From NCBI GenBank assembly GCA_965262715.1, contig OZ253553.1, positions 1,952,001 to 2,016,000 of the forward strand: 64,000 nt of DNA, read 5' to 3'. Under the pieces are notes generated by a model that was not told where the DNA came from, did not search any database, and worked only from the letters and a program-made list of their open reading frames with translations. Position numbers and translations under genes: made by a program. Below are positions 9,367 through 62,352 of this stretch, piece by piece. The first letter of the stretch is position 1. Each line of letters starts with the position of its first letter. This DNA comes from Bdellovibrionales bacterium (GTDB taxonomy: Bacteria; Bdellovibrionota; Bdellovibrionia; Bdellovibrionales; JAUICD01).

Positions 9367-9637
9367 TTTTCCTTAACATTGGGTTAAAAAACGAGGAGAG
9401 TCTCCCTCCTAAAAATGAACAGATTTTTGAGGCAATCAGCATTTTACTGACGGTGCTAACCGTCAAACTAACTGATAAACAACAACGATTCCCTTAACAT
9501 TGGGTCAAAAAACGAGGGGAGTCTTCTTACTAAAAATGTCCCAAGCTTTCCAGGCAGTCAGCTTTTTACGACGACGAGAGTCGTCGAGCTTACTGCCAGA
9601 AAGTTGCTAGGAGCAAGGGGCATTTTTAGTGATACAG
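9367..9637 (+). repeat. Two tandem units of the structured repeat family
   Basis: CCTTAACAT leaders at 9371 and 9492; second unit near-identical to 24473-24617. Confidence 0.9.
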
Positions 9638-10718
9638 CAAGCAAGGCAAAAGCACCGCCTTCCACAGCCTTTATAGGCCATCCTAGATCATCTGAAGTGA
9701 TCACATAAGGAAACTGCTCTTTTACATTATTAGATAAAATATATTTGATGCGATGTACTAAATAATGATTTAAAGCTCCACCTCCACATAATACCACAAC
9801 ATCTGGTAGACAAGGTAAATCTGATTTATAGGAGCGCCCAATAAGTTGAGCTGTAAAGTCTGTCAGCGTCGCTGCTTGGTCGGCTCGAGAACACCCTTTC
9901 AAATCCTTAAGGCATTGCTTAAAAAAAACATCAAATTCTTTACGGTCAAAGCTCTTAGGAGGTTTTTTCAAAACCCAAGAAGATGCCATCCACTTTTTAA
10001 TAATAAGAGAGTTTGTAATACCTTGAAAAGCCAGTTGCCCATCCTGATCATAATAAGATTTTCCTTTTGTTATTTTATTTATAAAAGAGTCTATTAAGGT
10101 ATTTCCAGGCCCTATATCATAAGAGATAACAGATCCCTTAAAAATAGATGTGACATTAGCAATTCCCCCTATATTTTGTATAGCAATGTGGGTATCTTTT
10201 ATTTTTCTCTGATGGATTTTTTTAGATTTAGAAGAAAGCCACTGGAAAACCCTTTGCGCGAGAACTTTTTGATGAAACAGAGTAGCAAGAGGAGCACCTT
10301 GTCCACCAAGAGCAATATCCATTGAACGAAAATCTGAGATCACAGGCACCTTTAATTTTATAGCCAAAAAGCAGGGCTTTCCGATTTGTAAAGTAGCATG
10401 TCCACCATGATGATAAACTGTTTGTCCATGTGATCCTATAAGATGTATTTTCCATCGTCTTTTACGTTGGTGTTGAGATAGCTCATTTGCATAGAATTTA
10501 CCTAATTCAAAATCCAATTCGACTAATTGATCGATAGGGAGATTGTGCGAAGTAGCCTTTAAAAGCTTTTGGTAAAGAGCTTTAGGGTATTGAGAGCAGG
10601 CTTGATCTAAAAATGTCATTTTAAAAGGCTTTTTTTGTATACGAGAAAGGACAAAATCCACACCATCCAAACTTGTCCCACTCATAATACCTACAACTTG
10701 AAGATTCTTCCTTATCAT
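9558..10718 (-). CDS. anmK: Anhydro-N-acetylmuramic acid kinase; native C-terminus replaced by repeat-derived sequence
   Basis: GIMSGTSLDGVD, GSHGQT, DFRSMDIALGGQGAPL, NIGGIAN, CGGGA; last ~25 codons lie inside the repeat. Confidence 0.9.
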   Translation of the reverse strand: MIRKNLQVVGIMSGTSLDGVDFVLSRIQKKPFKMTFLDQACSQYPKALYQKLLKATSHNLPIDQLVELDFELGKFYANELSQHQRKRRWKIHLIGSHGQTVYHHGGHATLQIGKPCFLAIKLKVPVISDFRSMDIALGGQGAPLATLFHQKVLAQRVFQWLSSKSKKIHQRKIKDTHIAIQNIGGIANVTSIFKGSVISYDIGPGNTLIDSFINKITKGKSYYDQDGQLAFQGITNSLIIKKWMASSWVLKKPPKSFDRKEFDVFFKQCLKDLKGCSRADQAATLTDFTAQLIGRSYKSDLPCLPDVVVLCGGGALNHYLVHRIKYILSNNVKEQFPYVITSDDLGWPIKAVEGGAFALLAVSLKMPLAPSNFLAVSSTTLVVVKS

Positions 10719-10940
10719 AGTCTATCTTGCCTCCATCTGATTTACAGAGCTTTTTTGATTCTAAAATGCCAACATCTATGGATATCTTGACTTAAGAGTC
10801 CTTAATCTGTCTGTATACTACACTATACAAAATCAATAAAAAATGAAATAATTAGGATATCAAGAGGCCTTCAATTTCTTTTATGAGGTTTTTAAAGATT
10901 TTCTTATTCTTTCTATTCTATCTGTATTGATGACATAGTT

Positions 10941-11032
10941 ATTTAAGAAGGTTTGTGTTGGTTTTATGTTAAAATAATGAAACACACATTAAGATACTTC
11001 ATTTTCAAAAACCCCTTTTTTAAACAATTAAT
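10941..11032. repeat. 92-bp direct repeat (target-site duplication), left copy
   Basis: Identical to 12983-13074; abuts IS terminal inverted repeat. Confidence 0.9.
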
Positions 11033-12982
11033 CCTGAGTTTGGCAGTTGAAAAAATAAAGTTAAGTAATTTTAATTACTTAAAGGCACATTGAGATTTTG
11101 TGCCACTAGGTTTTTGTTTTTTAGTGTGGTTTTTAAGAAAAGTAAATTGCAGTAATGAAGTTATTCTACTTTAAGTTGTTTAGAAGGTATCTTAACTCCT
11201 ATAGCTTTAAATACATCAGCATTGTTACCGTTAATGTCTGTTCTGATCCAAATAGTTTTGTCTTTATATCTGACAGGTATAGCTCGTACTTCTTTCAGCT
11301 TTAACATAGCCTCTGCTACACTTAATGGTCTTGGCTTTATTCTCTTGCCTGTGGTCGCATTATCTTTTAATGTGATCTTTTTTTGATCTAACTTCTTAGC
11401 ACAATAAGCCTCACATAAATAAGATAGAAAACATACAACTAAATGTCCTAATATTCTCTTGTCTGTCCAGTGGAACATAGGACGTGTCTTTAATGTACCC
11501 TTCAACTCTCTAAATGAATTCTCTACCTTCCATAACTGCTTATAGTTCATTATAATCTCTTCAGAGCTTAAATCTGTATTTGTAATTATTCCAAAAAAAC
11601 CATCTGTCTTTTCTGACTCATTTATAGCTGACTTATTTAAAGTAGGCTTGCCTTTACTCTTAGGATGAGTGATGTATTTCTTATAATTACTATTAGATAA
11701 AAAAGATCTTGTGCTTATGGACTTCTTTGATAATTGAGCTTCTATCTTAGATAGAATATCTTCTCTTACTTTCTTATCTCGTTCTGCTCTCTTTCTTGAC
11801 CATGTAATTATACAACGATCATTATTATAGCTCGTCTCGTATATAGCTAAATCTTCATTTATAAATTTAAAATTCTTTATACTATATATCTCTTCATGAC
11901 GATCCTTTAATAAACCTAGCTTTAATCCTACTATAAATTCATCTCCCTTTGCTTTTAGAGATTGGAGATTCTTATTAGAAAATAAACCTCTATCTCCTAC
12001 TAATATAAATCTTCTGATCTTAAACTTCTTCTTTAACTTTGTCATAACTGAAGGTATTGTTTTACCTTCAAAGGTATTCCCGGGATAAACATCAAATCCT
12101 AAGGGCATACCTTCTGTATCTACTAAAAGTCCAAATACCACCTGGGTACAATCACTTCTTTTCTCTTTGCTATAACCAAATCTCCGAAGATTATCTAAAT
12201 CCTCACGGGTGCTCTCAAACCTCAATGTCGTTAAATCATACAAAATAACATCACACTCATTGAAAAAACTTAACTGAGACTTACCTCGCATATAAAGACT
12301 CTTCTCTATATCTTCCTTATGGTGAGATAGAATATCTAAAGAACGATAAATATCATCGATCTTAAGATCCTTCTCTAAAAAATCAGGGTAAAATAACTGT
12401 TGCCAATGTGAATATAATTTCAGCTTAGAACATGGCTCTATGAATCGATTTACAACTAATGTAAAAACTACCTTCATAAGATCAAATGCAACTTTAGGAT
12501 GTCGCTTCTGTATATCTTTTAGTAATTCATACAAACCCAATTGCTTAAATAGGGTATCTATAATAAGTAAGGGACCTAATATAAAAGTGTTCTGTACATC
12601 AATCTCTTTAGCTATTTGACTGGCAGATACAACATCTAAATGACGGCTTAGAAGAGCAAGAAGATCTTCTAGTCGAGCATCTTTAGCTCGGCCTAAAGAC
12701 ATGAGGGTTCTATGGTTACTTTTACCATCTTTCCAATAGCTTTCAGCTATGTGATAGTAAGCTTGGCCTCTGGAGTTTTTTGTCTTCTTTATGAACATAG
12801 AGATATACTAGGATAAAAATATAAAAAATCAAGTAAAATAAGTATATAATGCAGTGTATAATAATAAGTTGTTTCACTAGGACTTTTGACCAAAACTCAA
12901 ACCCAATAACCCCTAACTACTATAAATAAAGCATTCTTTAAAAAAAATGTTCCGAAAATTAAAATTAACTGCCAAACTCAGG
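11033..12982 (-). mobile_element. IS1634-family insertion sequence
   Basis: 16-bp TIRs CCTGAGTTTGGCAGTT (11033-11048) / AACTGCCAAACTCAGG (12967-12982); long flanking direct repeats. Confidence 0.9.
11161..12798 (-). CDS. IS1634-family DDE transposase
   Basis: YDLTTLRFE, FGYSKEKRSD, VGDRG, YKQLWKVENSFRELK, RPMFHW motifs. Confidence 0.92.
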   Translation of the reverse strand: MFIKKTKNSRGQAYYHIAESYWKDGKSNHRTLMSLGRAKDARLEDLLALLSRHLDVVSASQIAKEIDVQNTFILGPLLIIDTLFKQLGLYELLKDIQKRHPKVAFDLMKVVFTLVVNRFIEPCSKLKLYSHWQQLFYPDFLEKDLKIDDIYRSLDILSHHKEDIEKSLYMRGKSQLSFFNECDVILYDLTTLRFESTREDLDNLRRFGYSKEKRSDCTQVVFGLLVDTEGMPLGFDVYPGNTFEGKTIPSVMTKLKKKFKIRRFILVGDRGLFSNKNLQSLKAKGDEFIVGLKLGLLKDRHEEIYSIKNFKFINEDLAIYETSYNNDRCIITWSRKRAERDKKVREDILSKIEAQLSKKSISTRSFLSNSNYKKYITHPKSKGKPTLNKSAINESEKTDGFFGIITNTDLSSEEIIMNYKQLWKVENSFRELKGTLKTRPMFHWTDKRILGHLVVCFLSYLCEAYCAKKLDQKKITLKDNATTGKRIKPRPLSVAEAMLKLKEVRAIPVRYKDKTIWIRTDINGNNADVFKAIGVKIPSKQLKVE

Positions 12983-13074
12983 ATTTAAGAAGGTTTGTGT
13001 TGGTTTTATGTTAAAATAATGAAACACACATTAAGATACTTCATTTTCAAAAACCCCTTTTTTAAACAATTAAT
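12983..13074. repeat. 92-bp direct repeat (target-site duplication), right copy
   Basis: Identical to 10941-11032. Confidence 0.9.
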
Positions 13075-13155
13075 TTAAAGTTCTATTAAATAAGCATGTA
13101 TCGGCATATTATTTATTCACTAAAATAAAAAATTCTATCGGCTTAAATTGAAAAT

Positions 13156-13567
13156 TTAAAAAGAAAAAGAGAAGTGACCATCATTAGACATATAAAAACA
13201 ACCCTTACAAAGAATATCCCTACCTAAAAGCACATCATAGTCTTTTTTAAGTAGAAGGACTTGTGTTACTTGTAGATACACTTTACTCATTGCTATTAAA
13301 TCTTGAGTTAATGATGAGTCAAGAACAAAACCAAAGGAAACATCATAAACAAAAGTGTCTTTTATGCCTGAAGGACTTGATATTGTTATTTGCCCATTAG
13401 GGTGTAAATCTAAATCTTTTACAACTTTTTCTGATACACAAGTGCTATCTGCACCAGTATCAATAAGGGCATTGTACTTGCTAGTCTTATTATTGACTAA
13501 TCGATGTAATAATAACTTGAATTAAAGGACCAATACCTTTGTGATATTTAGATGACAGGCATGGCAT
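13156..13567 (-). pseudogene. Frameshifted retropepsin-like aspartyl protease
   Basis: Manual translation: MPCLSSKYHKGIGPLIQV / ..ALIDTGADSTCVS..YDVLLGRDIL / CKGCFYMSNDGHFSFSF*, needing two frameshifts. Confidence 0.75.
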
Positions 13568-15030: not shown

Positions 15031-15031
15031 T

Positions 15032-22999: not shown

Positions 23000-23249
23000 A
23001 AAAATCTATTATTTTCAAAAATCAGGTTGATATACATCAATAAATGATTTCCTTAATATGGTGTTAAGAAACAGAGGCTATCTCTTTTCTATCTGGGAAA
23101 CTGGCAAACAAGCAATTGGTTGCCGACAACTAAAACGATGACTGGTAACAAGGATAGCTTACCAGCTTCTAAGTCTACCTGAATGCCAGATAAAATAATC
23201 CACTATTTTAAATCTTGTTTCTATATACCTACGTATACCTTTTTTTTAC

Positions 23250-24617
23250 ATTCCCTTAGCATGATGTCAAAAAACGAGGAATATCTACCCTCCTAAAAAT
23301 GAACAGATTTTTGAGACAATCAGCATTACTGATAGCTCTAACCGTCAGGCTAACTAATAAACAACAACGATTCCCTTAACATGATGTCAAAAAACGAGGG
23401 GAGTCTCCCTACTCAAAATAAACAGATTTTCTAGGCGATAACCATTTTACCGGCGGTGAGAACCGTCGGGGTCATCGCCAGAAAACGGCCAGAGGCTCGC
23501 CTCGAGAGGCCAGTTTATTTTGAGTGAAGTAGCAAATCAAGGAAAATATCTTTGCAGTAATGATTTGAGGGGGAGGTAGTAAACGATTTCCTTAACATCA
23601 TGTTAAAAAACGAGGGGAGTCTCCTACTTAAAATGAACAGGTTTTTGAGGCATTTAGCATTTTCTTGAAGGCGCGAGCCTTCAGGCTGATTAGATACATT
23701 TAAAGAGTCTATCATCTATAAATTAAACACTGTAATCTTTAAAAATCTCAGTGAGACAAGCCTTAACGCTTGTCTATTCCAAAAACTGCCAGAGGCAGGT
23801 TTATTTTTAGTGAAAATAAGTTTTGCGGAAGATCTCGTTTTTGGCTTAAAACATCAACTCTTAGACTGCTATGAAAAGATTTGGTGTGATTTGAAGGGAG
23901 GAGGTAGTGAATGGAAATTTTCCTTAACATATTGTTAAGCAACGAAGGGAGTCTCCCCTCCTAAAAGTAAACGGATTTTCTAGGCAGTCAGCATTTTCTT
24001 GAAGGCGTGAGCCTTCAGACTGATTAGATACATTTAAAGAGTCTATCATCTATAAATTAAACACTGTAATCTTTAAAAATCTCAGTGAGACAAGCCTTAA
24101 CGCTTGTCTATTCCAAAAACTGCCAGAGGCAGGTTTATTTTTAGTGAAAATAAGTTTTGCGGAAGATCTCGTTTTTGGCTTAAAACATCAACTCTTAGAC
24201 TGCTATGAAAAGATTTGGTGTGATTTGAAGGGAGGAGGTAGTGAATGGAAATTTTCCTTAACATATTGTTAAGCAACGAAGGGAGTCTCCCCTCCTAAAA
24301 GTAAACGGATTTTCTAGGCGATGACCATTTTACCGACGATGAGAACCGTCGGGGTCATCGCCAGAAAACAGCCAGAGACTCGCCTCGAGAGGCCAGTTCA
24401 TTTTGAGTGAAACAGCAAAACAAGGAAAAGATCTTTGCAGTAATGATTTGAAGGGGAGGTAGTAAACGATTTCCTTAACATGATGTTAAAAAACGAGGGG
24501 AGTCTTCTTACTAAAAATGTCCCAAGCTTTCTGGCAGTCAGCTTTTTACGACGACGAGAGTCGTCGAGCTTACTGCCAGAAAGTTGCTAGGAGCAAGGGG
24601 CATTTTTAGTGATACAG
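23250..24617 (+). repeat. Array of six structured repeat units including a 334-bp-period tandem duplication
   Basis: Leaders at 23254, 23374, 23590, 23922, 24256, 24473; 23656-23985 nearly identical to 23990-24319. Confidence 0.9.
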
Positions 24618-24624
24618 AGCATTT

Positions 24625-25992
24625 TTAGGGAGACAGTTCTAAACCTCTTCTTTCAAATTCTTGTTTGATGATGTCAGAGTATTTAGAACTTTTTTCTGAA
24701 GAAAACATTTGTTGGTTAAGATGATTTATTTTTACTCCAAGAGTTTCAAAGTTGTCACTGTAGGTGATTAACGGAAGATGCTCGGTAAAGAGCTTTACAA
24801 TATCCTCTTTTAAAACATCAGTATGGTTATATATCTCCCACCAAATACTACTATAGAGGACTCCCATTAAATGAATCTCACCACTGCCATCATCTTGGCA
24901 ATTATCATAAACTGCATCAGCAGTCAGCGTTTTATTTTTTGTAGGGTTTCTAGAGAATTCCTCACCAGAACCGCAGGCTGTAATACCCTTTAGATTATTA
25001 GTAATAAGCTCTCCTATTTGAGGATTATCTGGAAATAAAATAGCTACATGAAAGTCAGCCTGTCCTTCATTAATAGCAAAGAGACAACCTTTTTTATCAA
25101 TACAACAACGACTTGAATCATTTTGTTCTTCCCCAGAGAGTTCACAGAGAGATTTTCTATCAGAACATCTCACATTTTTCTCACAAACACCATTACTAGA
25201 CCTTTCAACAGCAGAATAAGAAAAGTTAGCATGACCTGCTTCATGCACAAGAACGTCAGCACTTAATCCCATTCGCCCTCCACAAAGCTGTATTTTATTT
25301 TCAGAGGCACTCCAGTAAGCGCAAGCTTTAGAGTCACTAAGTCTCTCGTTGAGAATAGTAATATTCTTATTTGTGGCATACCATTTACCTGTATTGAGCT
25401 GCATCCAATCCTTTTGGTACATAATCCAGTGATATATCATGGCTTGATCTACTGAAAGATCAAAATCAGTGTAGGGTGTCGTCCACTTCCCTTTAGGGTC
25501 AGAAACATGAACTCTTTTTTTATCTTCATCAGATTCTATAAGCACATCAAAATGTTCATTTTTCAAAGAACCCTCAGTCGTATCACTGATATAAACAGCA
25601 TAATTTTGGAGTGAATAAAGCTCTTCTAATATAACATTAATATCTGTGCTTAAATTTAGAGGCGCGCCTTTTTGAGCAACAGGGTTCTTCTCATAAATAC
25701 AGGCATTGATATTGGGGTTCATCGGTAATTCTTCTTGGCAATTAGGCACTATACTCCCTACTCTGCCGGGTATTTGTAGTCTATCTGCTAAAGTAGTTGT
25801 AGTTGTACTTGTAGTACTTATCGAGCTTGTTGTTGTGCTTTGAATTGGTGAAGAAGATTCTTCCTGTTTACTTGAAGGTGTCAGCTCACCTCCAAGTTCT
25901 TCTGTTTTACAATTTTGAAAGAAAAGACTAATAAAAACCAATGTTATCAAAAAAAACAACCATGGAATGTATCTTCTTTTAAATAACTTCAT
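24625..25992 (-). CDS. Exported gluzincin (M4/M36-like) metalloprotease with FQNC motif
   Basis: DVLVHEAGH, AINEGQADF, GEIHLMG motifs; FFQNC leader. Confidence 0.75.
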   Translation of the reverse strand: MKLFKRRYIPWLFFLITLVFISLFFQNCKTEELGGELTPSSKQEESSSPIQSTTTSSISTTSTTTTTLADRLQIPGRVGSIVPNCQEELPMNPNINACIYEKNPVAQKGAPLNLSTDINVILEELYSLQNYAVYISDTTEGSLKNEHFDVLIESDEDKKRVHVSDPKGKWTTPYTDFDLSVDQAMIYHWIMYQKDWMQLNTGKWYATNKNITILNERLSDSKACAYWSASENKIQLCGGRMGLSADVLVHEAGHANFSYSAVERSSNGVCEKNVRCSDRKSLCELSGEEQNDSSRCCIDKKGCLFAINEGQADFHVAILFPDNPQIGELITNNLKGITACGSGEEFSRNPTKNKTLTADAVYDNCQDDGSGEIHLMGVLYSSIWWEIYNHTDVLKEDIVKLFTEHLPLITYSDNFETLGVKINHLNQQMFSSEKSSKYSDIIKQEFERRGLELSP

Positions 25993-29841: not shown

Positions 29842-30024
29842 TTGAAAGATTATTTTGTCCGGGAAACAAGCAGACAAGGCAAGCTGGCAATCAGTTGCCG
29901 GCAACTAAAACTCTGTAATCTGTTCTTGAGATATAAATCATGGTTTCATTTTTTAAGATGACTGATAACAGAAACAGCTTGCCTGATGTAAAGGATATTT
30001 TTTGAAAAAAATCTTTGGAACAAT

Positions 30025-30122
30025 GATTTGATGTTTTAAGCCAGACCTCGAAGTCCTCGAGTGATCGCTTTGTTAGCGATCACTCTGCGGAAGATCTCGT
30101 CTTTGTCTTAAAACATCAAATC
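30025..30122. repeat. Nested-hairpin module in repeat linker
   Basis: 16-bp IR 30025-30040/30107-30122 with inner IR 30059-30085; 3' part recurs near 23824-23860 and 24158-24194. Confidence 0.7.
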
Positions 30123-30185
30123 TTAAGTTGCTATTAAACGATTTAGTGTGATTTGTAGAGAGAGGAAGTAGGTAATAAGGAAAAC

Positions 30186-30352
30186 GATTTCCTTAACATG
30201 ATGTAAATAAATGAGGGGAGTCTCCTTACTAAAATGCCTCATGCTTTCTAGGCATTGCCCTATTTGCCAAACGGCGTGAGCCAGTTTGGGGGCAATGCCA
30301 GAAAGTCGCCAGAAGCGAGAGGCATTTTAGTGATACAGAGACCAGTTCATTT
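30186..30352 (+). repeat. Structured repeat unit
   Basis: Leader at 30191; stems ACTAAAATGCCTC/GAGGCATTTTAGT, GGCATTGCCC/GGGCAATGCC, GTGA loop. Confidence 0.85.
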
Positions 30353-32686
30353 TTAGGGAAACCGCATCCCATCTATAATGTTATTAAAAGTAGGGCTTGG
30401 CCTTATAATCTGTGTCACTCGCTTTTCATCTGGATGATAATACCCTCCGATATCAACAGGTTTTCCCTGCTCATTATTGATTTCTGCTAAAATCTTTTCT
30501 TCATGATTCTTAAGTTGATTAGCTAAAAAAGAATACTTTTCTTGAACTTTTTTAAGGTAATGATATTGATCATTTTTTTTATCTGTTAATATTTTAAATT
30601 GTTCAGACAATCTTTCAACTATCGCCTCTGCCCAATAGAGAGCCCAATAAAAATGACTTCCACGGCTGTCTAATTCATGCACATAACGTGATGGAGATTT
30701 CTTTTCTTTTAAAAACCTTTCATTCGCCTTATTTAAAGCTTCAGACAAAATCTGAGCTTCTATTTTAAATTGAATAGATTTGTTTGATAAATCTTCTAGA
30801 GAAACAGCTAAAGCTAAAAATTCACCTAAAGAATCCCATCTTAAATGATTTTCTTTTAATAATTGATCAACATGTCTAGGAGCTGTACCACCAGAACCTG
30901 TTTCATAAAGACTTCCTCCTTTAAGAAGAGGAACAATAGACAACATTTTAGAGCTTGTTCCTATCTCTAAAATAGGAAAAAGATCCGTCAAGTAATCTCT
31001 AAGAACATTTCCAGTAACTGCAATGATTTCTTTTCCTGTTTTGACTTCGTGAAGAGTTAACTTCATAGCCTCTACTGGTGATAAAATGCGAATGTCTAAA
31101 CCATCTGTATCTTCATCTTTTATGAGGTGCTTAACTTTTTGAATCAAAACTCTATCATGAGCTCTATTGCTATCTAACCAAAAAACAGTTAATTGCCTTG
31201 TTATCTTTGATCTTTTTACAGCTAGCTTGACCCAATCACTGACTGCCTCATCTTTTGTTTGACACATTCTCCAAATATCATCTTTTTTCACATCATGCCC
31301 TAAAAGCACATTTCCATAATCATCTGTAATCTCTACCGTACCATTAGAAGGCATCATAAACGTCTTATCATGTGATCCATATTCTTGAGCCTTCTTGGCC
31401 ATTAATCCTATATTTGATACACTTCCCATCGTCCTTGGATCAAAAGCCCCATTTACTTTGCAAAATTCAATAACTTGCTGGTAAATACCTGCATAACTTC
31501 TATCAGGAATGAGCGCTTTCGTTGGATGAAGTTCACCATCTTTTCCCCACACTTTACCAGAAGACTTAATTATAGAAGGTATAGATGAATCAATAATCAC
31601 ATCATTTGGACTATGAAGACAAGTGATGCCCTTCTGAGAATTAACCATAGCTAAAGCAGGACGACTTTTATAACATTTTGCAAAAGCCTCTGTAATAACT
31701 TCTTTCAAAGGTGAAGAACTTATTTTTGAAAAAAGATCATTTAAACCATTACGAAAATTTACTCCTAGCTTATCTAAATCTTTGGCATGGCTACCTATAG
31801 CCTCTTTAAAATAAACCTTTATAGCTTCAGCAAAAATAACTGGATCAGAAACCTTCATCATCGTTGATTTGAGATGTAAAGAAAGAACAAGGTTCTTATT
31901 ATAAGCATCAGCAAATTCTTTCTCAAAAAATTCATTTAAATATCTTTTATTCATCACAGATGCATCAATAACTTCATTTTCTAAAACAGGAAAGGCGGGT
32001 TTAAGAATACTAACAGCACCTTGGTTATCAATAAATTTTATTGTTACATTTGTTGCTTTAGGAATAACTACTGACTTCTCATTTGAATAAAAGTCTCCCT
32101 CAGTCATAGAAGCCACATGCGACTGGCAATTACCATCCCACTGTCCCATGTAATGAGGATGATTTCTTACATACTGTTTGATCTCTTTAGGTACTCTTCT
32201 GTCGGAATTTCCTTCACGTAAGACAGGGTTGACTGCGCTTCCTAAAACTTTTCTATATTTTAAATAAATTTCTTTTTTTGTATCTGTTTGTTTTGAATTA
32301 TCATCTACAGTCACATTTTCAGGAAAAGAAGGTATATCAAATCTCTGATTTTGAAGTTCATTAATAGCAGTTTTTAATTGAGGCAAAGAAGCACTTATGT
32401 TAGGAAGTTTAATAATATTAGCTATTGGTTGTTTAACAACCTTTGAAAGCTCTAAAAGATCATCTGAAGTTGATGTTTTAGATGGGCAAGGAAAACAAGC
32501 TAAAATACGCCCTGCCAATGAGATATCTTTGATTTCAATAGGAATTTTCATCAAAGACAAAAATACTTTGATGATTGGAAACAAAGAATATGTTGCAAGA
32601 GCAGGTGCTTCATCTGTCTTTGTATAAACAATCTTAGCATCATCGTTTTTATTAATTTGTTGTGTATTCATTATTTCATTGCTCAA
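30353..32686 (-). CDS. icd: Monomeric NADP-dependent isocitrate dehydrogenase
   Basis: [50 protein letters not shown]. Confidence 0.96.
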
Positions 32687-33498: not shown

Positions 33499-33546
33499 GA
33501 ATCCGGGAATCTGGGAATCCGGGAACCCAGAAGTCTGGCAGTCTGT
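33499..33546 (+). repeat. Six degenerate 8-mer tandem repeats
   Basis: GAATCCGG GAATCTGG GAATCCGG GAACCCAG AAGTCTGG CAGTCTGT. Confidence 0.8.
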
Positions 33547-33602: not shown

Positions 33603-33895
33603 TATTTTCCCTAACATATATGTAAAAAATGAGAAGTATCTTCTTACTAAAAATAAACAGATTTTTGAGACAATCAGCATTTTACTGACGGTGCTAACCG
33701 TCAAGCTAACTGATAAACAACACCGATTTCCTTAACATTGGGTCAAAAAATGAGGGGAGTCTCCCTACTAAAATGCATCTTTCTTTCTAGGTGATAACCC
33801 TTTTCTGATGGAGCCATCAGGGTTATCACCAGAAAGTAGCCAGAGGCTAGATGCATTTTAGTGAAACAGAGGCCAGTTTATTTTTAGTGATATAG
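33603..33895 (+). repeat. Two tandem structured repeat units directly upstream of four-helix-bundle gene
   Basis: Leaders at 33609 and 33730; stems GGTGATAACCC/GGGTTATCACC, ACTAAAATGCATCT/AGATGCATTTTAGT. Confidence 0.88.
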
Positions 33896-33912: not shown

Positions 33913-34206
33913 ATGGGAAAATTCAAAACTTATCACTTAGCAACTCAATTCTATCATAAATCTAACAACTTAAGTTTAAGAGGGCCAATGAAAAACCAAT
34001 TTCAAAGAGCTTCCCTAAGTATCGTATTGAATCTGGCTGAAAGCTCTGCTAAATCTAGTGCTAAAGAACGTAAAAAATTCTATGAAATTAGCTTAGGTTC
34101 TCTAAGAGAGGTACAAACAATACTAACTCTTGTTAACCATCAAAAATTAATAAGAGAAGCTGATAAATTGGGTGCTTTCCTATATAAATTGTGTAAAAAT
34201 ACTTAA
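33913..34206 (+). CDS. Four helix bundle protein (TIGR02436 / 23S rRNA IVP family)
   Basis: QFQRASLSIVLNLAES...RKKFYEISLGSLREV signature; GGGAG RBS-like site upstream. Confidence 0.88.
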   Translation: MGKFKTYHLATQFYHKSNNLSLRGPMKNQFQRASLSIVLNLAESSAKSSAKERKKFYEISLGSLREVQTILTLVNHQKLIREADKLGAFLYKLCKNT

Positions 34207-39900: not shown

Positions 39901-40007
39901 CCCTAAGTTTAACCAGGATATAATATTTATTCTCCGGAATTCTGGCAATCGGGCATTCCGGCAAACAGTGTCCGGGAACTGATCTCCGGCCTATCAGAGA
40001 ATAGAAA

Positions 40008-40156
40008 TAATTTCCTTAACATGCTATTAAAAAACAAGGATATCCTCCCCACTCAAAATAAACGGATTTTTGAGGTAGTTAGCATTTTCTTGAAGGCGTA
40101 AGCCTTCAGGCTAACTGCCCAAAAATGACCAGAGGTCAGTTTATTTTGAGTGAAAC
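40008..40156 (+). repeat. Structured repeat unit abutting tRNA 3' end
   Basis: Leader at 40014; TGAAGGC-GTAA-GCCTTCA hairpin; ACTCAAAATAAAC/GTTTATTTTGAGT outer stem. Confidence 0.88.
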
Positions 40157-40159
40157 GAA

Positions 40160-40236
40160 TGGAGCGTAAGGCGGGACTCAAACCCGCGGCCTTCGCCTTG
40201 GCAAGGCGACGCTCTAATCACCTGAGCTACTCACGC
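40160..40236 (-). tRNA. tRNA-Gly(GCC)
   Basis: Cloverleaf GCGTGAG..TCGCC-TTGCCAA-GGCGA..GCGGG-TTTGAGT-CCCGC-CTTACGC-T-CCA. Confidence 0.92.
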
Positions 40237-41616: not shown

Positions 41617-41916
41617 CGTAAATCCTTTGTAGAACTTATGTCATAGTATAAATAGATCACCTAGATATTGTTACATGAACATCTCAATAATGAAAGGGTG
41701 AATTTCAAGTATTTTGATATAGTCTATACAAATAAGTACCTAATACACACTTACTCAGATCACCTTCTTTTGGAAAACTGGCAGTCCGGAAATCTGGCAG
41801 CAGTATCAGGTATTATCATTCGCGTTCAACCTTTGTATTTGAAAGCACTTTATACTGAATGCTAAATAATATGAGAATTGTAAAAGCTAATGGTAAGAAT
41901 GGAAAGAGACTCACCT

Positions 41917-41974
41917 TGAGAGGCTTGCCTCGAGAGGCTTGCCTCGAGAGGCCAGTTCATTTTGAGTGAAACAG
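41917..41974 (+). repeat. 3' remnant of structured repeat with tandem GCCTCGAGAGGC hairpins
   Basis: GCCTCGAGAGGCCAGTTCATTTTGAGTGAAACAG identical to 24382-24415. Confidence 0.8.
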
Positions 41975-42064
41975 TTTATATTGAACATGATAGGCCATGT
42001 TGACTTAGCAAAACAGGCAGATCAACTAGGAGCTTATTTATATAAACTATGTCAAAATACTTAA
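41972..42064 (+). pseudogene. C-terminal remnant of a second four-helix-bundle gene
   Basis: QFILNMIGHVDLAKQADQLGAYLYKLCQNT* aligns with QTILTLVNHQKLIREADKLGAFLYKLCKNT* of 33913-34206. Confidence 0.85.
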
Positions 42065-55880: not shown

Positions 55881-57205
55881 GGTGGATTCAAGTTGCAAGT
55901 GCAACTCCTTGCATAGTTATTTAAAGCGGGTTAGAGGAATACTCTAATCAATCTCTTTAAATAATGAAAGGAGTATTCCATGAGCAATTACACTCATCTA
56001 ACCCAACATGAGAGATACCAGATTTTAGCTTTTTTGCAAAGTGGAAAATCAATAAGTTCAATTGCTACTCAGGTAGGTCGAGATAAAAGCACGATATATA
56101 GGGAGCTGAGTCGTAACAAAGGTTTGCGAGGTTATCGTGCTCAACAAGCCCATGAAAAAGCAGTCGATCGTCTTCAAAACTCTCATAGACATATAAAGAT
56201 AACACAAAAAGTCATTAATAAGCTTGAGAGGTTTCTTTGTGAACGTTGGAGTCCGGAACAAATATCCGGTTTTCTTAAAACAAAAGGTTTTTCTATAAGT
56301 CATGAGAGTATTTATCAACATATTCTGCGAGATAAGAAATCAGGAGGTGATCTCTACAAATTTTTAAGATGTCAGAAGAAACGCAAGAAGCGATATGGTA
56401 CAAGTAGGTTTGATAAAAGGGGTCAGATACAGAATAGAGTGAGTATTGATAAAAGACCTAAGATAGTAGATAAGAGGATTCGCATAGGAGACTGGGAAGG
56501 TGATTTAATGATAGGTAGACATCATAAAGGAGCTTTAGTCACACTGGTAGATAGATGTTCTAAGAAGACGAGGATTGTCAAAATAGAATCTAAGAGTTCT
56601 GAGGCAGTATTTCATGCTATTTCTAAAACTCTTAAAAGAGAGGTTGTTCATACAATGACTTTGGATAATGGTAAAGAGTTTTCGTGTCATGAGAAGATCA
56701 GCGAATATACCGGATGTAAAGTTTATTTTGCTCATCCTTACAGTTCATATCAGAGGGGTTTAAATGAGAACACGAATGGTTTAATCCGTCAGTATTTTCC
56801 AAAGAAGACAGATTTTAGAGAAATCACCTCTAAGGATGTAAAAAAGGTTGAGTTTCTTTTAAATCACCGCCCTCGAAAGAGTTTAGGTTTTCTAACTCCC
56901 AATGAGTTTCATAGACAGAAGATGATTTGTTGAAATCATTATCAATTCAAAATTACTTATCCTATATAACAGCTTTTTGTAAGTAAAAATTGATGTTTAT
57001 AGTAAAGGCAAGTTTTTCCGCAGAGCTTTAGCTCGAGGACTACTTGCCTTTACTATAAACATCAAAGTACATCTCTTCAAATAAAATAATTTACTGTAAT
57101 CTTTCACTATAATTAAAACTTTGTTGGAATATTAATCTTAAAATGATATAACTTTTAAAAATATCTATAACCGCAAAAGTGTTGCACTTGCGATTTGAAG
57201 TTACA
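55881..57205 (+). mobile_element. IS30-family insertion sequence
   Basis: 25-bp imperfect TIRs ending GCAAGTGCAAC (55881-55905, 57181-57205); TT on both flanks. Confidence 0.85.
55980..56933 (+). CDS. IS30-family transposase
   Basis: HTH (STIYRELSRN), WSPEQIS, GDWEGD, TLDNGKEF, RGLNENTNGLIRQYFPK. Confidence 0.95.
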   Translation: MSNYTHLTQHERYQILAFLQSGKSISSIATQVGRDKSTIYRELSRNKGLRGYRAQQAHEKAVDRLQNSHRHIKITQKVINKLERFLCERWSPEQISGFLKTKGFSISHESIYQHILRDKKSGGDLYKFLRCQKKRKKRYGTSRFDKRGQIQNRVSIDKRPKIVDKRIRIGDWEGDLMIGRHHKGALVTLVDRCSKKTRIVKIESKSSEAVFHAISKTLKREVVHTMTLDNGKEFSCHEKISEYTGCKVYFAHPYSSYQRGLNENTNGLIRQYFPKKTDFREITSKDVKKVEFLLNHRPRKSLGFLTPNEFHRQKMIC

Positions 57206-57233
57206 TTATATAAAACTTATACTGCTAATAGCA

Positions 57234-57725: not shown

Positions 57726-57904
57726 AATTTGCTCTCCTTCTTTCATTTTGACAAACAATATCAATATATATTTCGTAACTTAAAATTACATACTTATTTA
57801 TTATTCTAACAACAACAGTAAAAACCCTTATTTCAAAAAGGATTTTTACCATTATCTTCTACACATAACTTATTCTTAAAAAAAAAAATTTTCCTCATAA
57901 AAGC

Positions 57905-58954
57905 CTATCTATTAGATTGGGCTGTAACAATTTCATAGATGACCAACCTAGTGCGATACCTTTCTAACCTTTGATTTGGCGATTGTGATGACAAAGTATT
58001 ATTATATGCATTATATATCCAATCATCATTATCATATTTGCCAACGCTATTAAAACCAATAAGAAGTGTGCTTATTGTTTCTTTCATATCATCAAAGCTT
58101 ATTCCTACAGGATCCCTATCATCATGGTTTTTAAAATTTATATCAACATCATTGATTAAGAGCCTTTTTAGTATTCCATCAGCATCAGGAACATCAACAG
58201 TGTGTACTACATGATGTGCAGCGAAGTCAGCTCCCTGTGATGGTGAGTCAGGTCGGATATCCCTTGATATTCCATCGAAACTTACTAACAAATCCCCATA
58301 AGCTTGATGAAGCTGCATAGCCGCAATATGTTCAATTTGATGTTGAGTTTCTTCATCTACTTCATACTCATACCCTTTAGGAATATCAAAAAAATGAACT
58401 GGCGCATGTAAAACATAGGTAGGTGTTGATGATCCAGATTCTGCAGCTATCGATTCTACAGTTGATAACAAGTCTCCATAAGCTTGACGGAGCTGCATAC
58501 CTGCAATGTGTTCAATTTGATATCGAATGTTTTCATCTAAACTATCTAGTTCATATTCATCAGGAATATCAATAAACCGGACTGGTACATGCACAACAGA
58601 AGCAGATGATCTTCCAATTATCGATCCCGCATCTGATAACAACCCTTCATAAGCTTGACGAAGCCTTCTATCTGCAAAATGTTGAACTTGATGTCGGGTT
58701 TCTTCATTTAAATCAAAATGTTCCATTATAACATTAAAAGTTAAAGGGTCTTCATTATTTTCTAATGCTAAGATCATTGGCAAAATTCCATTTGGACAAG
58801 GTACGTTCATAGCTAATCTACCTCTAAGTTGAACTTCGAATTCTATCTCAAAATCTTTAACCGACTGCCACCATAAGCCACTACATACATCTGCCCTGGC
58901 AAAACTGCCTATCATCATTAATCCTATAATCAAAAGATATCTCATAAACTTCAT
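57905..58954 (-). CDS. Secreted hypothetical protein with three internal repeats
   Basis: Signal peptide; three E..HQ..H.A..L.QAY..LL units. Confidence 0.7.
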   Translation of the reverse strand: MKFMRYLLIIGLMMIGSFARADVCSGLWWQSVKDFEIEFEVQLRGRLAMNVPCPNGILPMILALENNEDPLTFNVIMEHFDLNEETRHQVQHFADRRLRQAYEGLLSDAGSIIGRSSASVVHVPVRFIDIPDEYELDSLDENIRYQIEHIAGMQLRQAYGDLLSTVESIAAESGSSTPTYVLHAPVHFFDIPKGYEYEVDEETQHQIEHIAAMQLHQAYGDLLVSFDGISRDIRPDSPSQGADFAAHHVVHTVDVPDADGILKRLLINDVDINFKNHDDRDPVGISFDDMKETISTLLIGFNSVGKYDNDDWIYNAYNNTLSSQSPNQRLERYRTRLVIYEIVTAQSNR

Positions 58955-59357
58955 AATTTGCTCTCCTTCTTTCATTTTGCAAATAATACAAAAAATCTAC
59001 AAACCTTGTCAAATAAAAACCTACAAAGCTACCCTTTTTACAAAATTCCTATCACAAACATGAAATAATTACACAAAATAAAGCTTAGCATATGAAATAA
59101 TTACACAAAGCAAAAACTAATTGGATTTACTTAAAGCATTGTTATAAAGATAATAGTTCTTTAATTTTATTTTGAGATCATTCATTTGGAAAAAAGCATT
59201 AACCTTTTAATATCATTGATTTTTAAAAATATTTGTATTAAAAGTCATATTTATTTTTGTAAGATCAATTAAGATATTTTAATTTACTTTCTCTTAGGCT
59301 ATTTGAAGTTAAAACGTGAAAGAATAAGAGTTTATGTCAATTTCGAGTTAAAATGAA

Positions 59358-59499
59358 TAGAAGCCCTCTTATAAAATAATATTTAAGAAGTCGAATTGCA
59401 AAATGCAAAATATTATTTTATAAGATGGCTTCTAGTCAAAATGGACGGACTCTCTTAAAAGCGTGTATACGCACTTTTAAGAGAGTCCGTCCATTTTGA
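59358..59499. other. Two back-to-back long inverted repeats
   Basis: 59358-59384/59408-59434 near-perfect; 59436-59461/59474-59499 perfect 26 bp. Confidence 0.8.
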
Positions 59500-59574
59500 G
59501 TGAGACAGTCCTTTTATATAGAGCCTGAACTAAAAGGTTGTTTTGAAAATGTGAGCACAGGAAGTAATTTTGAG

Positions 59575-61956
59575 ATGAGTTCTAAGTTCAAGCTGTTTTT
59601 AATATTTTTATGTCTCATTGGTTGCTCTCCAGTATTTGCAAAAGATAAACCAGCAGCATGCGCTACAGCTCTGATGCCTTATGTAGGTTTATTCTTAAAA
59701 CCTAATAACAGCGAATTACAACAAGCAGTCTCTGTCTTATTAGAACAATCAGAAGAAGTAGGTGACCTTTTATTAGACCTCAATCAAAATCCCTCGAAAA
59801 GTGAGGTTTTAAATAATCATGTTGACAGGATCTATAAATTAAATCCTCAATCTGCTTTTATTTTAACTGCTGCTATTTTAAAAGCTTCATTAACAGATGT
59901 GAATAAAGAGATAATCAAAAAAACGTGGGATGAATTTATAAGCAGTTCAAAGGCTTCTGAAGAAGTGCAAAGAGCCATAAATCAAGCTTTTAAAAGACAA
60001 CCAACAAATAATGAAAGCACACCTCATAATCCTTATATAGATTCCCTTTCTTTGCGAACATTACTTTTACTAATAGAAGATCCAAATTATCAAAGTATAT
60101 TGGTATTGAAAGATAAAAATGAAACCATAAGTGGATATACTTCGTACAAACCTGGTGATTCTGAAGTTTTAAGTTATGTGCATTTGAATAACGCTTACAT
60201 CTTTTTTGAAACCTATAAACGTGTCTATGTTTTTCAAGTTCAACCTGAGAGTCATTTATCAACCAATGTTCTTGTATTTAATAAAAAGCAACCTAATCTC
60301 ATAGCTAATAACCTATACCATGAATATTTTGAAGAAATACAACATTATTTTAATTCTTCATATACCGAAATGAATGAAGAACTTATAGATAATGTTCTAG
60401 ATAATTTAGATATGATAACAACCACTGTTAAAAAATCAACCTTTTTTGAAAGATTTATTTACCGTCTTACAAGAATTCGAGATGCTTTTGAAATATCATC
60501 TCATTCAATCATCGACAATGCTATTACTAATTATAATGCTACAAAGAATGACTTTCAAGTTTCAACACTTTTAAAGATAGCTCATTATTTAAGAGTCAAA
60601 TTGTCAATTCTATTAAGTGATGAAGACTTGGTCCCTTATGCTCACATTGATCAAAGTAGACCTCCTTTATCAGATGAGTATATATATGAAGTAGAAAGAA
60701 ATATCAAAATAAAACTTAGAGATGCAATCAGAAAGTCTGACCTTACTTTATCAGATTTGGAAAATAAAAGTGGAGTATCTCTATCAATCCTTAACAAGAT
60801 ATTAGCAAGCTCATTTATTCCAAAATATTTAGTAATGAAAAATATTACAGATGTTTTAGGGATTGATATTAATGAATTTTTAATAAAAATTGTAAATGAT
60901 GTTCTAAAAAATATGCTACAACATCACTTTAACAACAACCAAGATCAACAAAATGAAGCAGCTATCTTAGAGCGTATTGGAAATCGTATTAAACAAGCGA
61001 TGTTTTTGGCAGGGTTTGATTTAAAAACAAGATTAACAGAAGTATTAGGAGTCCGCATAGATAATCTAGGTAAAGTGAATCCGCGATTTAGAGTTCTATT
61101 AACAACATCTTATGTAACAGGAATAAACCTATCAGTTCTAGTTGGTGATGCAAACTTAGAAGATCAAATTGACCCAAGCCTTGCAAGACACACTGAGATG
61201 CCAGAAGACTATTTTAGAAAAGCAAGGATCCTTATAATCTATTATATCAAAAAAAGAATGGTAGAATTAAATCTCTCCATAAGAGATCTTGCCTCTTTAA
61301 ATAGCGGGCTTAAACAAGATACAATACGCACATTGTTTAATGGAAGGCAAACCCCAGGCTATCTTTTACTTTCTAAAATAGCGGATACTTTAAAAACCAC
61401 ACTATCTGATCTACTACAAAATTTAGAAGAAGATATTGAACAATTTAACAGTTTAGATTTAAATATTGAAGTTCCTGCCTCTAATAGAAACAATATAACG
61501 GAGAGCGCTCTAAACGAACTTAATCGTTGGAGACAACGTATAATTCAAGCTGTAGAATTGAGTCGTATACCATCAAAGAGATTAGACAAAGAATTCAAGA
61601 TAAGACTCAAAACTTTCAGAGAAAAGAGACTAGCCACCCTTTTTAAAGCGGCTCATCTTGCAGGAATTACTGTATCAGAGCTTTTAGGTCATAGAGATCT
61701 TTCACAATTAATAAGTCCTCATCGTGATATAAAAGCAATAAGACCATTATCCGACTCTCAAATTAAAAGAAAGGTACATCAGTTTAGTCAAAATATTACA
61801 ATTCGAATGGAGAATGTTTATGGACATCCTTTACCTCCACATATTAGAAATCACATATCTACAGTATATGACAGCCTACTGGTTTCATCTTCTCGTATAA
61901 TACGATTATCTGAAGAGCTGAATGTAGATCCTGTGCATTTTTTTGCAGATTTATAA
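59575..61956 (+). CDS. Protein with signal peptide and tandem XRE-type HTH-like repeats
   Basis: MSSKFKLFLIFLCLIGCSPVFA; repeated LTLSDLENKSGVS.., LSIRDLAS..P...LLSKIADTL, TL.K.A..L...LS.LL. Confidence 0.65.
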   Translation: MSSKFKLFLIFLCLIGCSPVFAKDKPAACATALMPYVGLFLKPNNSELQQAVSVLLEQSEEVGDLLLDLNQNPSKSEVLNNHVDRIYKLNPQSAFILTAAILKASLTDVNKEIIKKTWDEFISSSKASEEVQRAINQAFKRQPTNNESTPHNPYIDSLSLRTLLLLIEDPNYQSILVLKDKNETISGYTSYKPGDSEVLSYVHLNNAYIFFETYKRVYVFQVQPESHLSTNVLVFNKKQPNLIANNLYHEYFEEIQHYFNSSYTEMNEELIDNVLDNLDMITTTVKKSTFFERFIYRLTRIRDAFEISSHSIIDNAITNYNATKNDFQVSTLLKIAHYLRVKLSILLSDEDLVPYAHIDQSRPPLSDEYIYEVERNIKIKLRDAIRKSDLTLSDLENKSGVSLSILNKILASSFIPKYLVMKNITDVLGIDINEFLIKIVNDVLKNMLQHHFNNNQDQQNEAAILERIGNRIKQAMFLAGFDLKTRLTEVLGVRIDNLGKVNPRFRVLLTTSYVTGINLSVLVGDANLEDQIDPSLARHTEMPEDYFRKARILIIYYIKKRMVELNLSIRDLASLNSGLKQDTIRTLFNGRQTPGYLLLSKIADTLKTTLSDLLQNLEEDIEQFNSLDLNIEVPASNRNNITESALNELNRWRQRIIQAVELSRIPSKRLDKEFKIRLKTFREKRLATLFKAAHLAGITVSELLGHRDLSQLISPHRDIKAIRPLSDSQIKRKVHQFSQNITIRMENVYGHPLPPHIRNHISTVYDSLLVSSSRIIRLSEELNVDPVHFFADL

Positions 61957-61962
61957 CTCCTC

Positions 61963-62352
61963 CTGTTCCACTAAAAATAAACCAACCTCTGGTTGTTTTT
62001 GGGCAATGAGCATGACGGCTAACGCCCTCCTAAAATGCTCATTGCCTCAAAAATCCGTTTATTTTTAGTAATGAGAATTTTTTCTTTTTTTATACGATGT
62101 TAAGGAAAATGTTGCTGTTTACAAAGCAGCCTGACGATTCACATCGTCAGCAAATAGCTAACTGCCTAAAAAGCTTGAGGTGTTTTAGTAGGAAGAATCT
62201 CTTTATTCTCTTATATCATGTTAAGGAAAATATTGTTGTTTACAAATCAGCCTGAAGGTTTACATCTTCAAGAAAATGCTGACTGTCTCAAATATCCATT
62301 TATTTTTAGTAATGAGGGTCTCTTCTTTTTTTACAAAATGTTAAGGAAATCT
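61963..62352 (-). repeat. Three tandem structured repeat units (minus strand)
   Basis: TTAAGGAAA at 62100, 62221, 62341 (period ~120); hairpins CTGACGAT-GTGA-ATCGTCAG etc. on the minus strand. Confidence 0.88.

What the first reader, a model, noticed from the sequence alone, without database searches (positions are those of the whole stretch)
9367..62352. Dispersed family of ~120-150 bp covarying structured repeats with GNRA-capped variable hairpins
About 16 copies of a leader TTCCTTAACAT-N-AAAAAACGAGGGGAGTCTCCCTACTAAAA occur at 9371, 9492, 23051 (partial), 23254, 23374, 23590, 23922, 24256, 24473, 30191, 33609, 33730, 40014 and on the minus strand at 62100, 62221, 62341. Complete units form three nested stems whose sequences differ between copies yet stay paired. 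Outer: ACTCAAAATAAAC/GTTTATTTTGAGT, ACTAAAATGCCTC/GAGGCATTTTAGT, ACTAAAATGCATCT/AGATGCATTTTAGT. Middle: GGCGATAACC/GGTCATCGCC, GGCATTGCCC/GGGCAATGCC, GGTGATAACCC/GGGTTATCACC, GGTAGTTAGC/GCTAACTGCC. Apical: CGACGAC-GAGA-GTCGTCG, TGAAGGC-GCGA/GTGA/GTAA-GCCTTCA, CTGACGAT-GTGA-ATCGTCAG. Strand-specific GNRA loops and compensatory changes suggest selection on a single-stranded fold, probably RNA (inference). I do not recognise it as a named family.
Basis: partly seen in the sequence, partly recalled or inferred. Interest (0 to 1): 0.88.

Follow-up and report, generated by a model that had tools for sequence, protein, structure and literature searches.

The report
Folded repeat crowding bacterial gene ends
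The repeats are real: they belong to a family of about 150-base folded elements found hundreds of times in one genus of uncultured predatory-type bacteria, which behave like selfish DNA whose one end keeps getting joined next to gene ends and which cluster with a small mobile gene of unknown function, but the enzyme that moves them was not found.

Summary
Observation confirmed. All 16 sites exist, and the genome holds 481 hits (320 near full length, 2.1% of its DNA; 0 in a reversed control). The fold is a three-way junction, not three nested stems. 31 of 41 pairs show two-sided changes and G·T outnumbers A·C 106:44, so the strand as written is the folded one. Loops are GNRA-biased but not strict (107 GNRA, 28 GNYA, 18 ANNA), so RNA is not shown. 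No Rfam match, terminal inverted repeat, fixed target duplication or flanking RAYT. The family is confined to the genus: the hits in another genus lie on mis-binned contigs. The scan found this family before elsewhere in this genome. Added here: (1) polarity: the 3' end lies within 20 nt of convergent stop codons or tRNA CCA ends in 38 of 95 cases (5' end 9 of 91), has replaced anmK's C-terminus, and marks tandem junctions 10:1; (2) a link to multicopy Avd-like four-helix-bundle cassettes (22 of 39 loci; 14 of 14 in a congener); (3) inner stems swap at orthologous sites. Best reading: a non-autonomous, fold-recognised mobile repeat working like YPAL or REPIN; enzyme unknown.

The parts
668..793 (-). 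Leaderless, degenerate copy; its 3' end directly abuts the stop codon of the convergent ORF 5..667
9367..9487 (+). 3'-truncated ~120-nt unit (leader to end of P2), followed by a complete copy
9488..9636 (+). Complete element; its 3' end is fused into the convergent anmK gene and replaces the native C-terminus with 25 residues read from the element's minus strand
23047..23102 (+). Leader-only copy followed by heptamer-like units
23250..23369 (+). 3'-truncated unit
23370..23531 (+). Complete element with one 14-nt expansion in P3
23586..23817 (+). Element interrupted after P2c by a 74-bp insert (23692-23765; 8 copies in the genome, all in elements)
23918..24151 (+). Second interrupted copy (tandem period ~332 bp)
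24252..24414 (+). Complete element with P3 expansion
24469..24616 (+). Complete element; 3' end plus a short duplicated arm ends 7 nt from the stop of the convergent ORF 24625..25992
30020..30135 (+). Second structured repeat (family B hairpin; 43 copies in the genome, 34 within 200 bp of an element, all on the same strand)
30187..30337 (+). Complete element; 3' end 14 nt from the stop of the convergent ORF 30353..32686
33503..33540 (+). Block of 6-8-nt tandem units that opens the four-helix-bundle cassette
33605..33725 (+). 3'-truncated unit inside the loop of the hairpin that carries the four-helix-bundle ribosome-binding site
   Evidence: (clusters 178, 238)
33726..33868 (+). Complete element in the same hairpin loop, followed by a duplicated 3' arm
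33913..34206 (+). Four-helix-bundle gene (97 aa, TIGR02436/PF05635, basic); one of about 19 copies
39934..39977 (+). Heptamer block upstream of the element
40010..40157 (+). Complete element; 3' end 3-4 nt from the 3' end of the convergent tRNA-Gly
40160..40236 (-). tRNA-Gly(GCC), the neighbour of the 40010 copy
41943..42063 (+). 3' arm of an element joined to the 3' third of a four-helix-bundle gene (split-gene remnant)
59401..59507 (+). Leaderless variant: outer stem and 3' end around a plain hairpin
61964..62109 (-). Complete element; 3' end 6 nt from the stop of the convergent ORF 59500..61956
62110..62350 (-). Two 3'-truncated ~120-nt units in tandem upstream of the 61964 copy

Best explanation
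It is a non-coding, non-autonomous mobile repeat of one Bdellovibrionales genus. Shown: a ~42-nt leader with a sharp 5' edge, a ~105-nt three-way junction held by compensatory change on one strand, and a short unpaired 3' tail; copies are gained, lost, expanded in tandem and swap inner stems. Inferred: the element is copied as a folded single strand (DNA or RNA, undecided) that a trans-acting protein reads by shape. The 3' tail is the reactive end. It is joined by non-DDE chemistry, with microhomology, to single-stranded or hairpin-rich sites on the same strand. Joining to a distant site makes a new copy; joining to a nearby upstream site makes the tandem and arm duplications; joining to a nearby downstream site deletes the DNA between, and repeated rounds stop only at the next essential border, which piles 3' ends up at stop codons, tRNA ends and start regions. 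The multicopy four-helix-bundle cassette is the best candidate partner or co-traveller; the cutting or copying enzyme is unknown.
For: 481 hits, 0 in control; mostly intergenic, both orientations. Pairing kept; distal P1 arms perfectly matched at 5 variable pairs in 63% of 309 copies against 12% when reassorted; bulged A kept in 297 of 309; G·T:A·C 106:44, and 30:8 among events seen at more than one locus. Orthologous sites in a ~90% identical strain carry different inner stems or differ in presence. Free 3' ends within 20 nt of a convergent stop or tRNA end: 38 of 95; free 5' ends near a same-strand stop: 9 of 91 (Fisher p 2e-6). 5 of 34 tRNA genes have an antisense 3' end 0-4 nt from their 3' end and 2 have it 3-6 nt before their 5' end; the pattern recurs at other tRNAs in G001. 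anmK lost its native tail exactly at the element's 3' end, and the tail was not found on the element's far side. Of 37 tandem arrays, 10 break at the 3' end and 1 at the 5' end; 34 of 256 copies have a duplicated 3' arm. Four-helix-bundle loci with an element within 250 bp: 22 of 39 against 12-14% of other genes; 14 of 14 in G001 within 400 bp; dN/dS about 0.1, pI about 10.
Against: No enzyme found: the only Y1 transposase is an ordinary IS200 not flanked by the repeat and G001 has none; G001 has no reverse transcriptase; no IS110; the Y2 search was uninformative. The paired test in 36 convergent gaps was not significant (11 vs 3 within 20 nt, Wilcoxon p 0.27), and allowing a 15-20-nt 5' extension narrows the gap. 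26 of 37 arrays are uninformative. Four-helix-bundle genes are also multicopy in genomes without the element, so they are not sufficient, and the link may be only a shared target preference; several of the 22 loci descend from one split gene; no background was computed for G001. Gene ends come from a crude ORF caller. No intermediate was observed.
Confidence: 0.55

Rival explanations
1. Retroposed RNA. The element is transcribed on the GNRA strand, bound by the Avd-like pentamer, and reverse-transcribed from its 3' end with tRNA 3' ends or free DNA ends as primers, which puts it antisense behind CCA ends and stop codons.
For: GNRA bias (107 of 135 GNNA loops) and G·T bias; exact CCA junctions; variable junctions with extra 5' bases and 25-37-nt duplications; in G001 a same-strand element starts 65-103 nt after the stop of 8 of 9 intact four-helix-bundle genes; Avd binds an RNA stem-loop in DGRs; G000 has group II intron and retron reverse transcriptases.
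Against: No reverse transcriptase found in G001; none of the three G000 enzymes is tied to the element or to four-helix-bundle genes; 3'-truncated copies (90) outnumber 5'-truncated ones (66); 3' ends also sit just before tRNA 5' ends and start codons, which tRNA priming does not explain; the structural match to Avd is weak (rank 42).
Confidence: 0.15
2. Orphaned REPIN-type family: spread by a RAYT or other HUH enzyme acting on folded single-stranded DNA, with the gene since lost or too divergent to be found.
For: GNYA and ANNA loops tolerated; tandem arrays that include flanks and insertion next to existing copies are described for REPINs; one reactive end fits HUH chemistry (own knowledge).
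Against: No RAYT-like gene beside the repeats in G000 or G001 although G001 holds several top-scoring copies with equal scores at scattered sites; multi-copy clusters are mostly same-strand (78 of 103), not inverted doublets; no clear replication-strand bias beyond that of genes (115:80 against 56%).
Confidence: 0.12
3. Host-selected 3'-end device (terminator, mRNA stabiliser or RNase III site, like SPRITE or YPAL): copies that land antisense behind a gene supply a terminator, which lets the native 3' region decay.
For: P3 plus a T-run scores as terminator-like on both strands; pile-up behind stop codons; SPRITE and YPAL are described near gene 3' ends.
Against: The strand read in those cases is the one with A·C mismatches and no GNRA loops; the fold is kept equally in copies far from gene ends; positions are not conserved (rpsQ-rplN filled in G000, empty in G001); it does not explain the anmK truncation or the spread.
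Confidence: 0.1
4. No selection on the fold: replication template-switching perfects the palindromes, and ordinary recombination plus resident IS elements spread them passively.
For: Exact 14-nt expansion steps in P3 (13/27/41/55 nt) and a ~20-fold 16-nt expansion; some copies ride inside IS1595-type MITEs; many IS families in the genome.
Against: G·T over A·C asymmetry, invariant bulges and AGA loop, biased tetraloops; only 3 hits lay between a matched pair of those MITE ends; near-identical copies at distant sites often share only 0-8 flanking bases.
Confidence: 0.08

Closest known systems
YPAL/RU-2 of Yersinia (168 bp; passages of PMC2229807)
   Same: Similar size, internal inverted repeats, no TA termini, variable-length duplications (3-26 bp there; 25-37 nt seen here), targets next to dyad symmetry, recent gain and loss.
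   Different: Here a three-way junction plus a separate leader; junctions often delete instead of duplicating; the copies nearest gene ends are antisense to the gene; link to four-helix-bundle cassettes. Sequence identity to YPAL was not tested directly.
bcr1 of the Bacillus cereus group (passages of PMC3184786)
   Same: Dispersed, positions not conserved, compensatory changes keep a branched fold, mobiliser unknown.
   Different: bcr1 has 5-bp direct repeats and is shown to be transcribed; no fixed duplication and no expression data here.
REP/REPIN-RAYT systems (passages of PMC3116915 and PMC3733652)
   Same: Hundreds of intergenic hairpin repeats, tandem arrays including flanks, insertion next to existing copies, narrow taxonomic range.
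   Different: Not a 20-40-bp tagged palindrome or an inverted doublet; no RAYT gene flanked by the repeat.
SPRITE of Streptococcus pneumoniae (passage of PMC3184786)
   Same: Terminator-like part; bias to 3' ends of convergent genes.
   Different: Much larger covarying fold; the bias concerns one end of the element; evidence of adjacent deletion.
Avd/spacer RNA of diversity-generating retroelements (abstract and section 8 of bioRxiv 2023.10.23.563531)
   Same: A small basic four-helix-bundle protein gene followed by a ~140-150-nt structured segment.
   Different: No adjacent reverse transcriptase; the protein is closer to Xcc0516 and BT_0352 than to Avd; binding untested.

Membership tests
Rfam ncRNA families | Match at gathering score | tested here: not met
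   Only tRNA in the window; at E<=10 only weak hits far below cut-offs in 23000-24700
REP/REPIN-RAYT | RAYT (Y1 HUH) gene flanked by the repeat | tested here: not met
   One PF01797 gene in G000, an IS200 with its own ends, nearest element about 1.8 kb away; none in G001
REP/REPIN-RAYT | Unit is an inverted doublet of short tagged palindromes | tested here: not met
   Unit is ~148 nt; 25 of 103 multi-copy clusters are mixed-strand
DDE-type MITE | Terminal inverted repeats shared with a resident IS | tested here: not met
   Ends are not complementary beyond a few bases; no likeness by eye to the ends of the multicopy IS families printed
DDE-type MITE | Fixed-length target-site duplication | tested here: not met
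   31 of 278 clusters had a paralogous candidate empty site; junctions range from deletions to 25-37-nt duplications; many partners are sibling repeats
YPAL-like elements | Internal inverted repeats, variable duplication, target next to dyad symmetry | tested here: inconclusive
   Seen in single cases (RBS hairpin loop, tRNA stems, 25-nt duplication), not tested genome-wide
YPAL-like elements | Co-transcription and RNase III processing | not testable with these tools
   No RNA holder listed
Integron attC cassettes | IntI integrase and arrays of single-gene cassettes each ended by the site | tested here: not met
   Two tyrosine recombinases only, a ~340-aa Xer-like one and a ~198-aa one also in G002, neither near elements; copies are dispersed in both orientations; no IntI-specific model was run
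IS91/ISCR rolling-circle elements | Y2 transposase in the genome | tested here: inconclusive
   0 of 5 genomes, but the control rang nowhere
Diversity-generating retroelement | avd next to a reverse transcriptase with TR/VR | tested here: not met
   No reverse transcriptase among 71 neighbours of 35 four-helix-bundle loci, no four-helix-bundle gene in the three G000 RT loci, no RT in G001; TR/VR not searched
Four helix bundle protein TIGR02436/PF05635 (the associated gene) | HMM score over cut-off and four-helix fold | tested here: met
   57.1 bits against 24; model pLDDT 84 with four helices; TM 0.87 to 2gsc and 2rld, E above 0.001

The most novel reading that the evidence does not exclude
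The repeat is the nucleic-acid partner or satellite of an undescribed mobility system built on the small four-helix-bundle (Avd-like) protein: the protein binds the folded strand and, with a host polymerase or a distant reverse transcriptase, joins its 3' tail to free 3' ends at tRNA CCA termini, gene ends and hairpins. This would give the widespread PF05635 family a function and define a transposase-free class of mobile element.
Probability: 0.15. Interest if true: 0.85.

Novelty: new variant of a known kind. Interest (0 to 1): 0.52.

Why it matters
For most small structured bacterial repeats the mobiliser is unknown. This family offers hundreds of natural variants that map a fold at base-pair level, a clear polarity (one end makes the junctions, trims intergenic DNA and has rewritten an enzyme's C-terminus), and a named candidate partner, a basic four-helix-bundle protein under purifying selection whose family has no known function outside diversity-generating retroelements. 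That makes two open questions testable with one binding and mobility experiment. If the link fails, it remains a genus-specific junk repeat that shapes 2% of a genome.

Tried and rejected
Presence in a second genus (G004): rejected. All hits lie on three contigs 85-87% identical on average and largely syntenic to G000, while G004 has its own rplN elsewhere. This also removes the apparent perfect co-occurrence with four-helix-bundle genes. Rpn/Transposase_31 as mobiliser: 16 copies in G003, which lacks the element. IS200 TnpA, group II intron and retron enzymes, IS110, the short tyrosine recombinase: no linkage or absent from G001. Y2 search uninformative. Replication-strand bias: no more than that of genes. 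Sigma-70 promoter inside the element: none in the one copy scanned. Phages and plasmids: no match. Viral contigs: no pattern match and no four-helix-bundle relative. Metagenome contigs: 0 matches, then 1 with no element around it. Covariance model: 3 of 150 genomes of the order, 1 of 150 of the phylum, 0 of 5 other genomes rich in four-helix-bundle genes (only 20 candidates scored per genome in the large searches). No RNA holder listed. Laying contigs only confirmed the sequence in runs of one sample. The first grammar parse was off by one base and was redone. Paper searches listed no description of this family or of a link between such repeats and four-helix-bundle genes; one search was swamped by unrelated hits; supplements were not read.


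Full report
Setting. The window is bases 1,952,001-2,016,000 of G000, a 2.94-Mb single contig of 33.6% G+C. The only genome of the species collection with exact matches to a core pattern was titled a Bdellovibrionales MAG, and relatives carry Bdellovibrio-type domains, so I treat the host as an uncultured Bdellovibrionales.

Observation. All 16 sites are present; a leader pattern gives 18 matches against 1.56 expected. A profile built from 76 distinct copies finds 481 hits in the genome, 320 spanning both ends, and none in the reversed sequence; they cover 62.7 kb in 235 clusters, 13 of them mostly inside crude ORF calls. The window has 8 complete, 2 interrupted, 5 3'-truncated and 1 leader-only copy among the 16, plus three further pieces.

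Anatomy. A ~42-nt leader starts sharply (T at 96-99%), holds a weak hairpin and shows no consensus pairing. The core is a three-way junction: P1 13 bp; a 3-nt linker; P2 made of 6 bp, a bulged A (297 of 309), 10 bp, a 5-6-nt pyrimidine-rich bulge and 7-8 bp closed by a tetraloop; P3 5 bp with an AGA loop; then a short unpaired tail. On 45 distinct copies from G000, G001 and the mis-binned contigs, 97.1% of cells pair and 31 of 41 pairs change on both sides; related sequences can inflate this test and the structure came from the same copies. Distinct mismatch events are 106 G·T to 44 A·C, 30 to 8 among those at more than one locus, so the strand as written is the folded one. Among 309 parsed copies the apical loop is GNRA in 107, GNYA in 28, ANNA in 18, another tetraloop in 46, another length in 80 and not found in 30. 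GNNA loops are also stable in DNA (own knowledge), so this does not decide RNA against DNA. P3 grows in exact 14-nt steps.

Dynamics. The same inner stems occur within different outer stems, yet the two P1 arms, 100 nt apart, stay matched (63% perfect against 12% reassorted). A strain ~90% identical to G000 in its syntenic blocks, found as mis-binned contigs in G004, has copies at the same rpsQ-rplN site with the same flanks but other inner stems; G001 is empty there. Of six loci aligned between the two strains, most differ in content. The family was found in G000, G001 and those contigs only: 3 of 150 genomes of the order and 1 of 150 of the phylum, not in phages, plasmids or viral contigs.

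Polarity of the 3' end. Orientation to genes is nearly even (120:90), which argues against a leader or riboswitch. But 38 of 95 free 3' ends lie within 20 nt of a convergent stop codon or tRNA end, against 9 of 91 free 5' ends next to a same-strand stop; 17 of 105 3' ends lie within 20 nt of a same-strand start, against 0 of 70 5' ends. 13 of 34 tRNA genes have a copy within 150 nt; five have an antisense 3' end 0-4 nt from their 3' end, four of them joined straight to the complement of CCA, and two have it 3-6 nt before their 5' end. In G001, 8 of 30 tRNA loci examined (of 35) have a copy within 150 nt, five antisense downstream, two of these at 4-5 nt. In the window the copies at 668, 24469, 30187, 40010 and 61964 show the pattern, and the 9488 copy has replaced the last 25-36 residues of AnmK, whose orthologues continue past the junction; the lost tail is not in the 155 nt on the far side. 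Of 37 tandem arrays 10 break at the 3' end, 1 at the 5' end, 12 at neither clearly and 14 are not duplications; 34 of 256 copies repeat their 3' arm. Against: the paired test in 36 convergent gaps gives 11 against 3 but Wilcoxon p 0.27; congener loci (G001 plus L097-L108) give 5 of 24 against 1 of 16; with stricter end' ends also gather 15-21 nt after stops. One reaction, joining the 3' tail to a nearby or distant site on the same strand, explains new copies, duplications and creeping deletions; this is inference.

Junctions. There are no terminal inverted repeats and no likeness to the printed IS ends. For 31 of 278 clusters a paralogous candidate empty site exists; junctions show 10-25 A-rich extra bases on the 5' side, microhomology on the 3' side, deletions of up to about 30 nt or duplications of 25-37 nt. 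These are paralogues, not true ancestors. A few copies ride in IS1595-type MITEs.

The four-helix-bundle link. The gene at 33913-34206 is a TIGR02436/PF05635 protein, basic, with dN/dS about 0.1 among 8 intact copies, folding like Xcc0516 and BT_0352. Of 39 such loci in G000, 22 have an element within 250 bp against 12-14% of other genes. Elements sit in the loop of the gene's ribosome-binding hairpin in both orientations and split the gene near codons 62-66 in G000 and G001, possibly from one old event. In G001 all 14 loci have an element within 400 bp and 8 of 9 intact genes are followed on the same strand after 65-103 nt (no background available). However, the gene occurs in 83 of 251 genomes of the order, multicopy in several without the element, among random housekeeping neighbours with no recurring enzyme (71 ORFs from 35 loci). 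Earlier scan notes describe such repeat-flanked cassettes in many other genomes (unchecked AI notes). So the cassette is a wider mobile unit, and the element is either its genus-specific satellite or simply favours it as a target.

Mobiliser. Not found; see Tried and rejected. These were searches for seven chosen families, not a full proteome screen.

Comparison. It works most like YPAL and bcr1 (passages read) and shares habits with REPINs (passages), but fails the defining tests of REP/RAYT, DDE MITEs, attC cassettes and DGRs. For the Rpn paper PMC5350276 I saw only the listing. Nine paper searches showed no description of this family; supplements were not read. The scan itself noted the family three times on other windows of this genome; the polarity, the four-helix-bundle link and the binning artefact do not appear in the lines shown for those notes.

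Verdict. Real, well supported as a structured mobile repeat, a new variant of a known kind. Interest 0.52: the family alone is modest and already noted by the scan; the polar junction behaviour and a testable protein partner raise it.

Noticed in passing
window 30020-30135 (+); partial at ~23824 and ~24158; reverse copy in the IS30 3' region ~56990-57065: A second covarying hairpin family (43 copies by motif; 34 within 200 bp of the element, all same strand), also carried by the IS30 copies; found in G000 and the mis-binned contigs, not in G001 by BLAST with few candidates scored.
   Followed up: partly
G004 contigs C1, C4, C11 (L126-L129, L133-L135): These contigs come from a G000-like strain (85-87% mean identity, second rplN), so G004 is a mixed bin.
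   Followed up: yes
L053, L057, L060, L061, L071, L166: In other members of the order, four-helix-bundle genes occur as head-to-head doublets around a perfect hairpin holding the ribosome-binding sites; in this genus the single genes keep a short antisense stub of their own start upstream.
   Followed up: partly
window 33503-33540, 39934-39977, 41778-41799; 142 blocks genome-wide: Blocks of degenerate 6-8-nt tandem units, often as inverted pairs, 27 near an element and 10 near a four-helix-bundle gene.
   Followed up: partly
window 9558-10718 (-): anmK ends in 25 residues encoded by the element in place of the 25-36 native ones; activity unknown.
   Followed up: yes
G000:C1:1892740-1893060: An internal 16-nt hairpin unit of one element is expanded about 20 times in tandem.
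   Followed up: no
L149 (G000:C1:~892900-893490) and L148, L150: A conserved ~198-aa tyrosine recombinase without the N-terminal binding domain in G000, G001 and G002; G003 and G004 gave no tyrosine recombinase match at all.
   Followed up: no
window 11161-12798 (-) and 55980-56933 (+): IS1634-family and IS30-family transposases; the genome has at least nine multicopy IS families and about 38 Rpn-like ORFs.
   Followed up: no
L017, L020, L019: One full and one degenerate group II intron reverse transcriptase and a retron St85-type enzyme fused to a long N-terminal domain, near tRNA-Asp.
   Followed up: no
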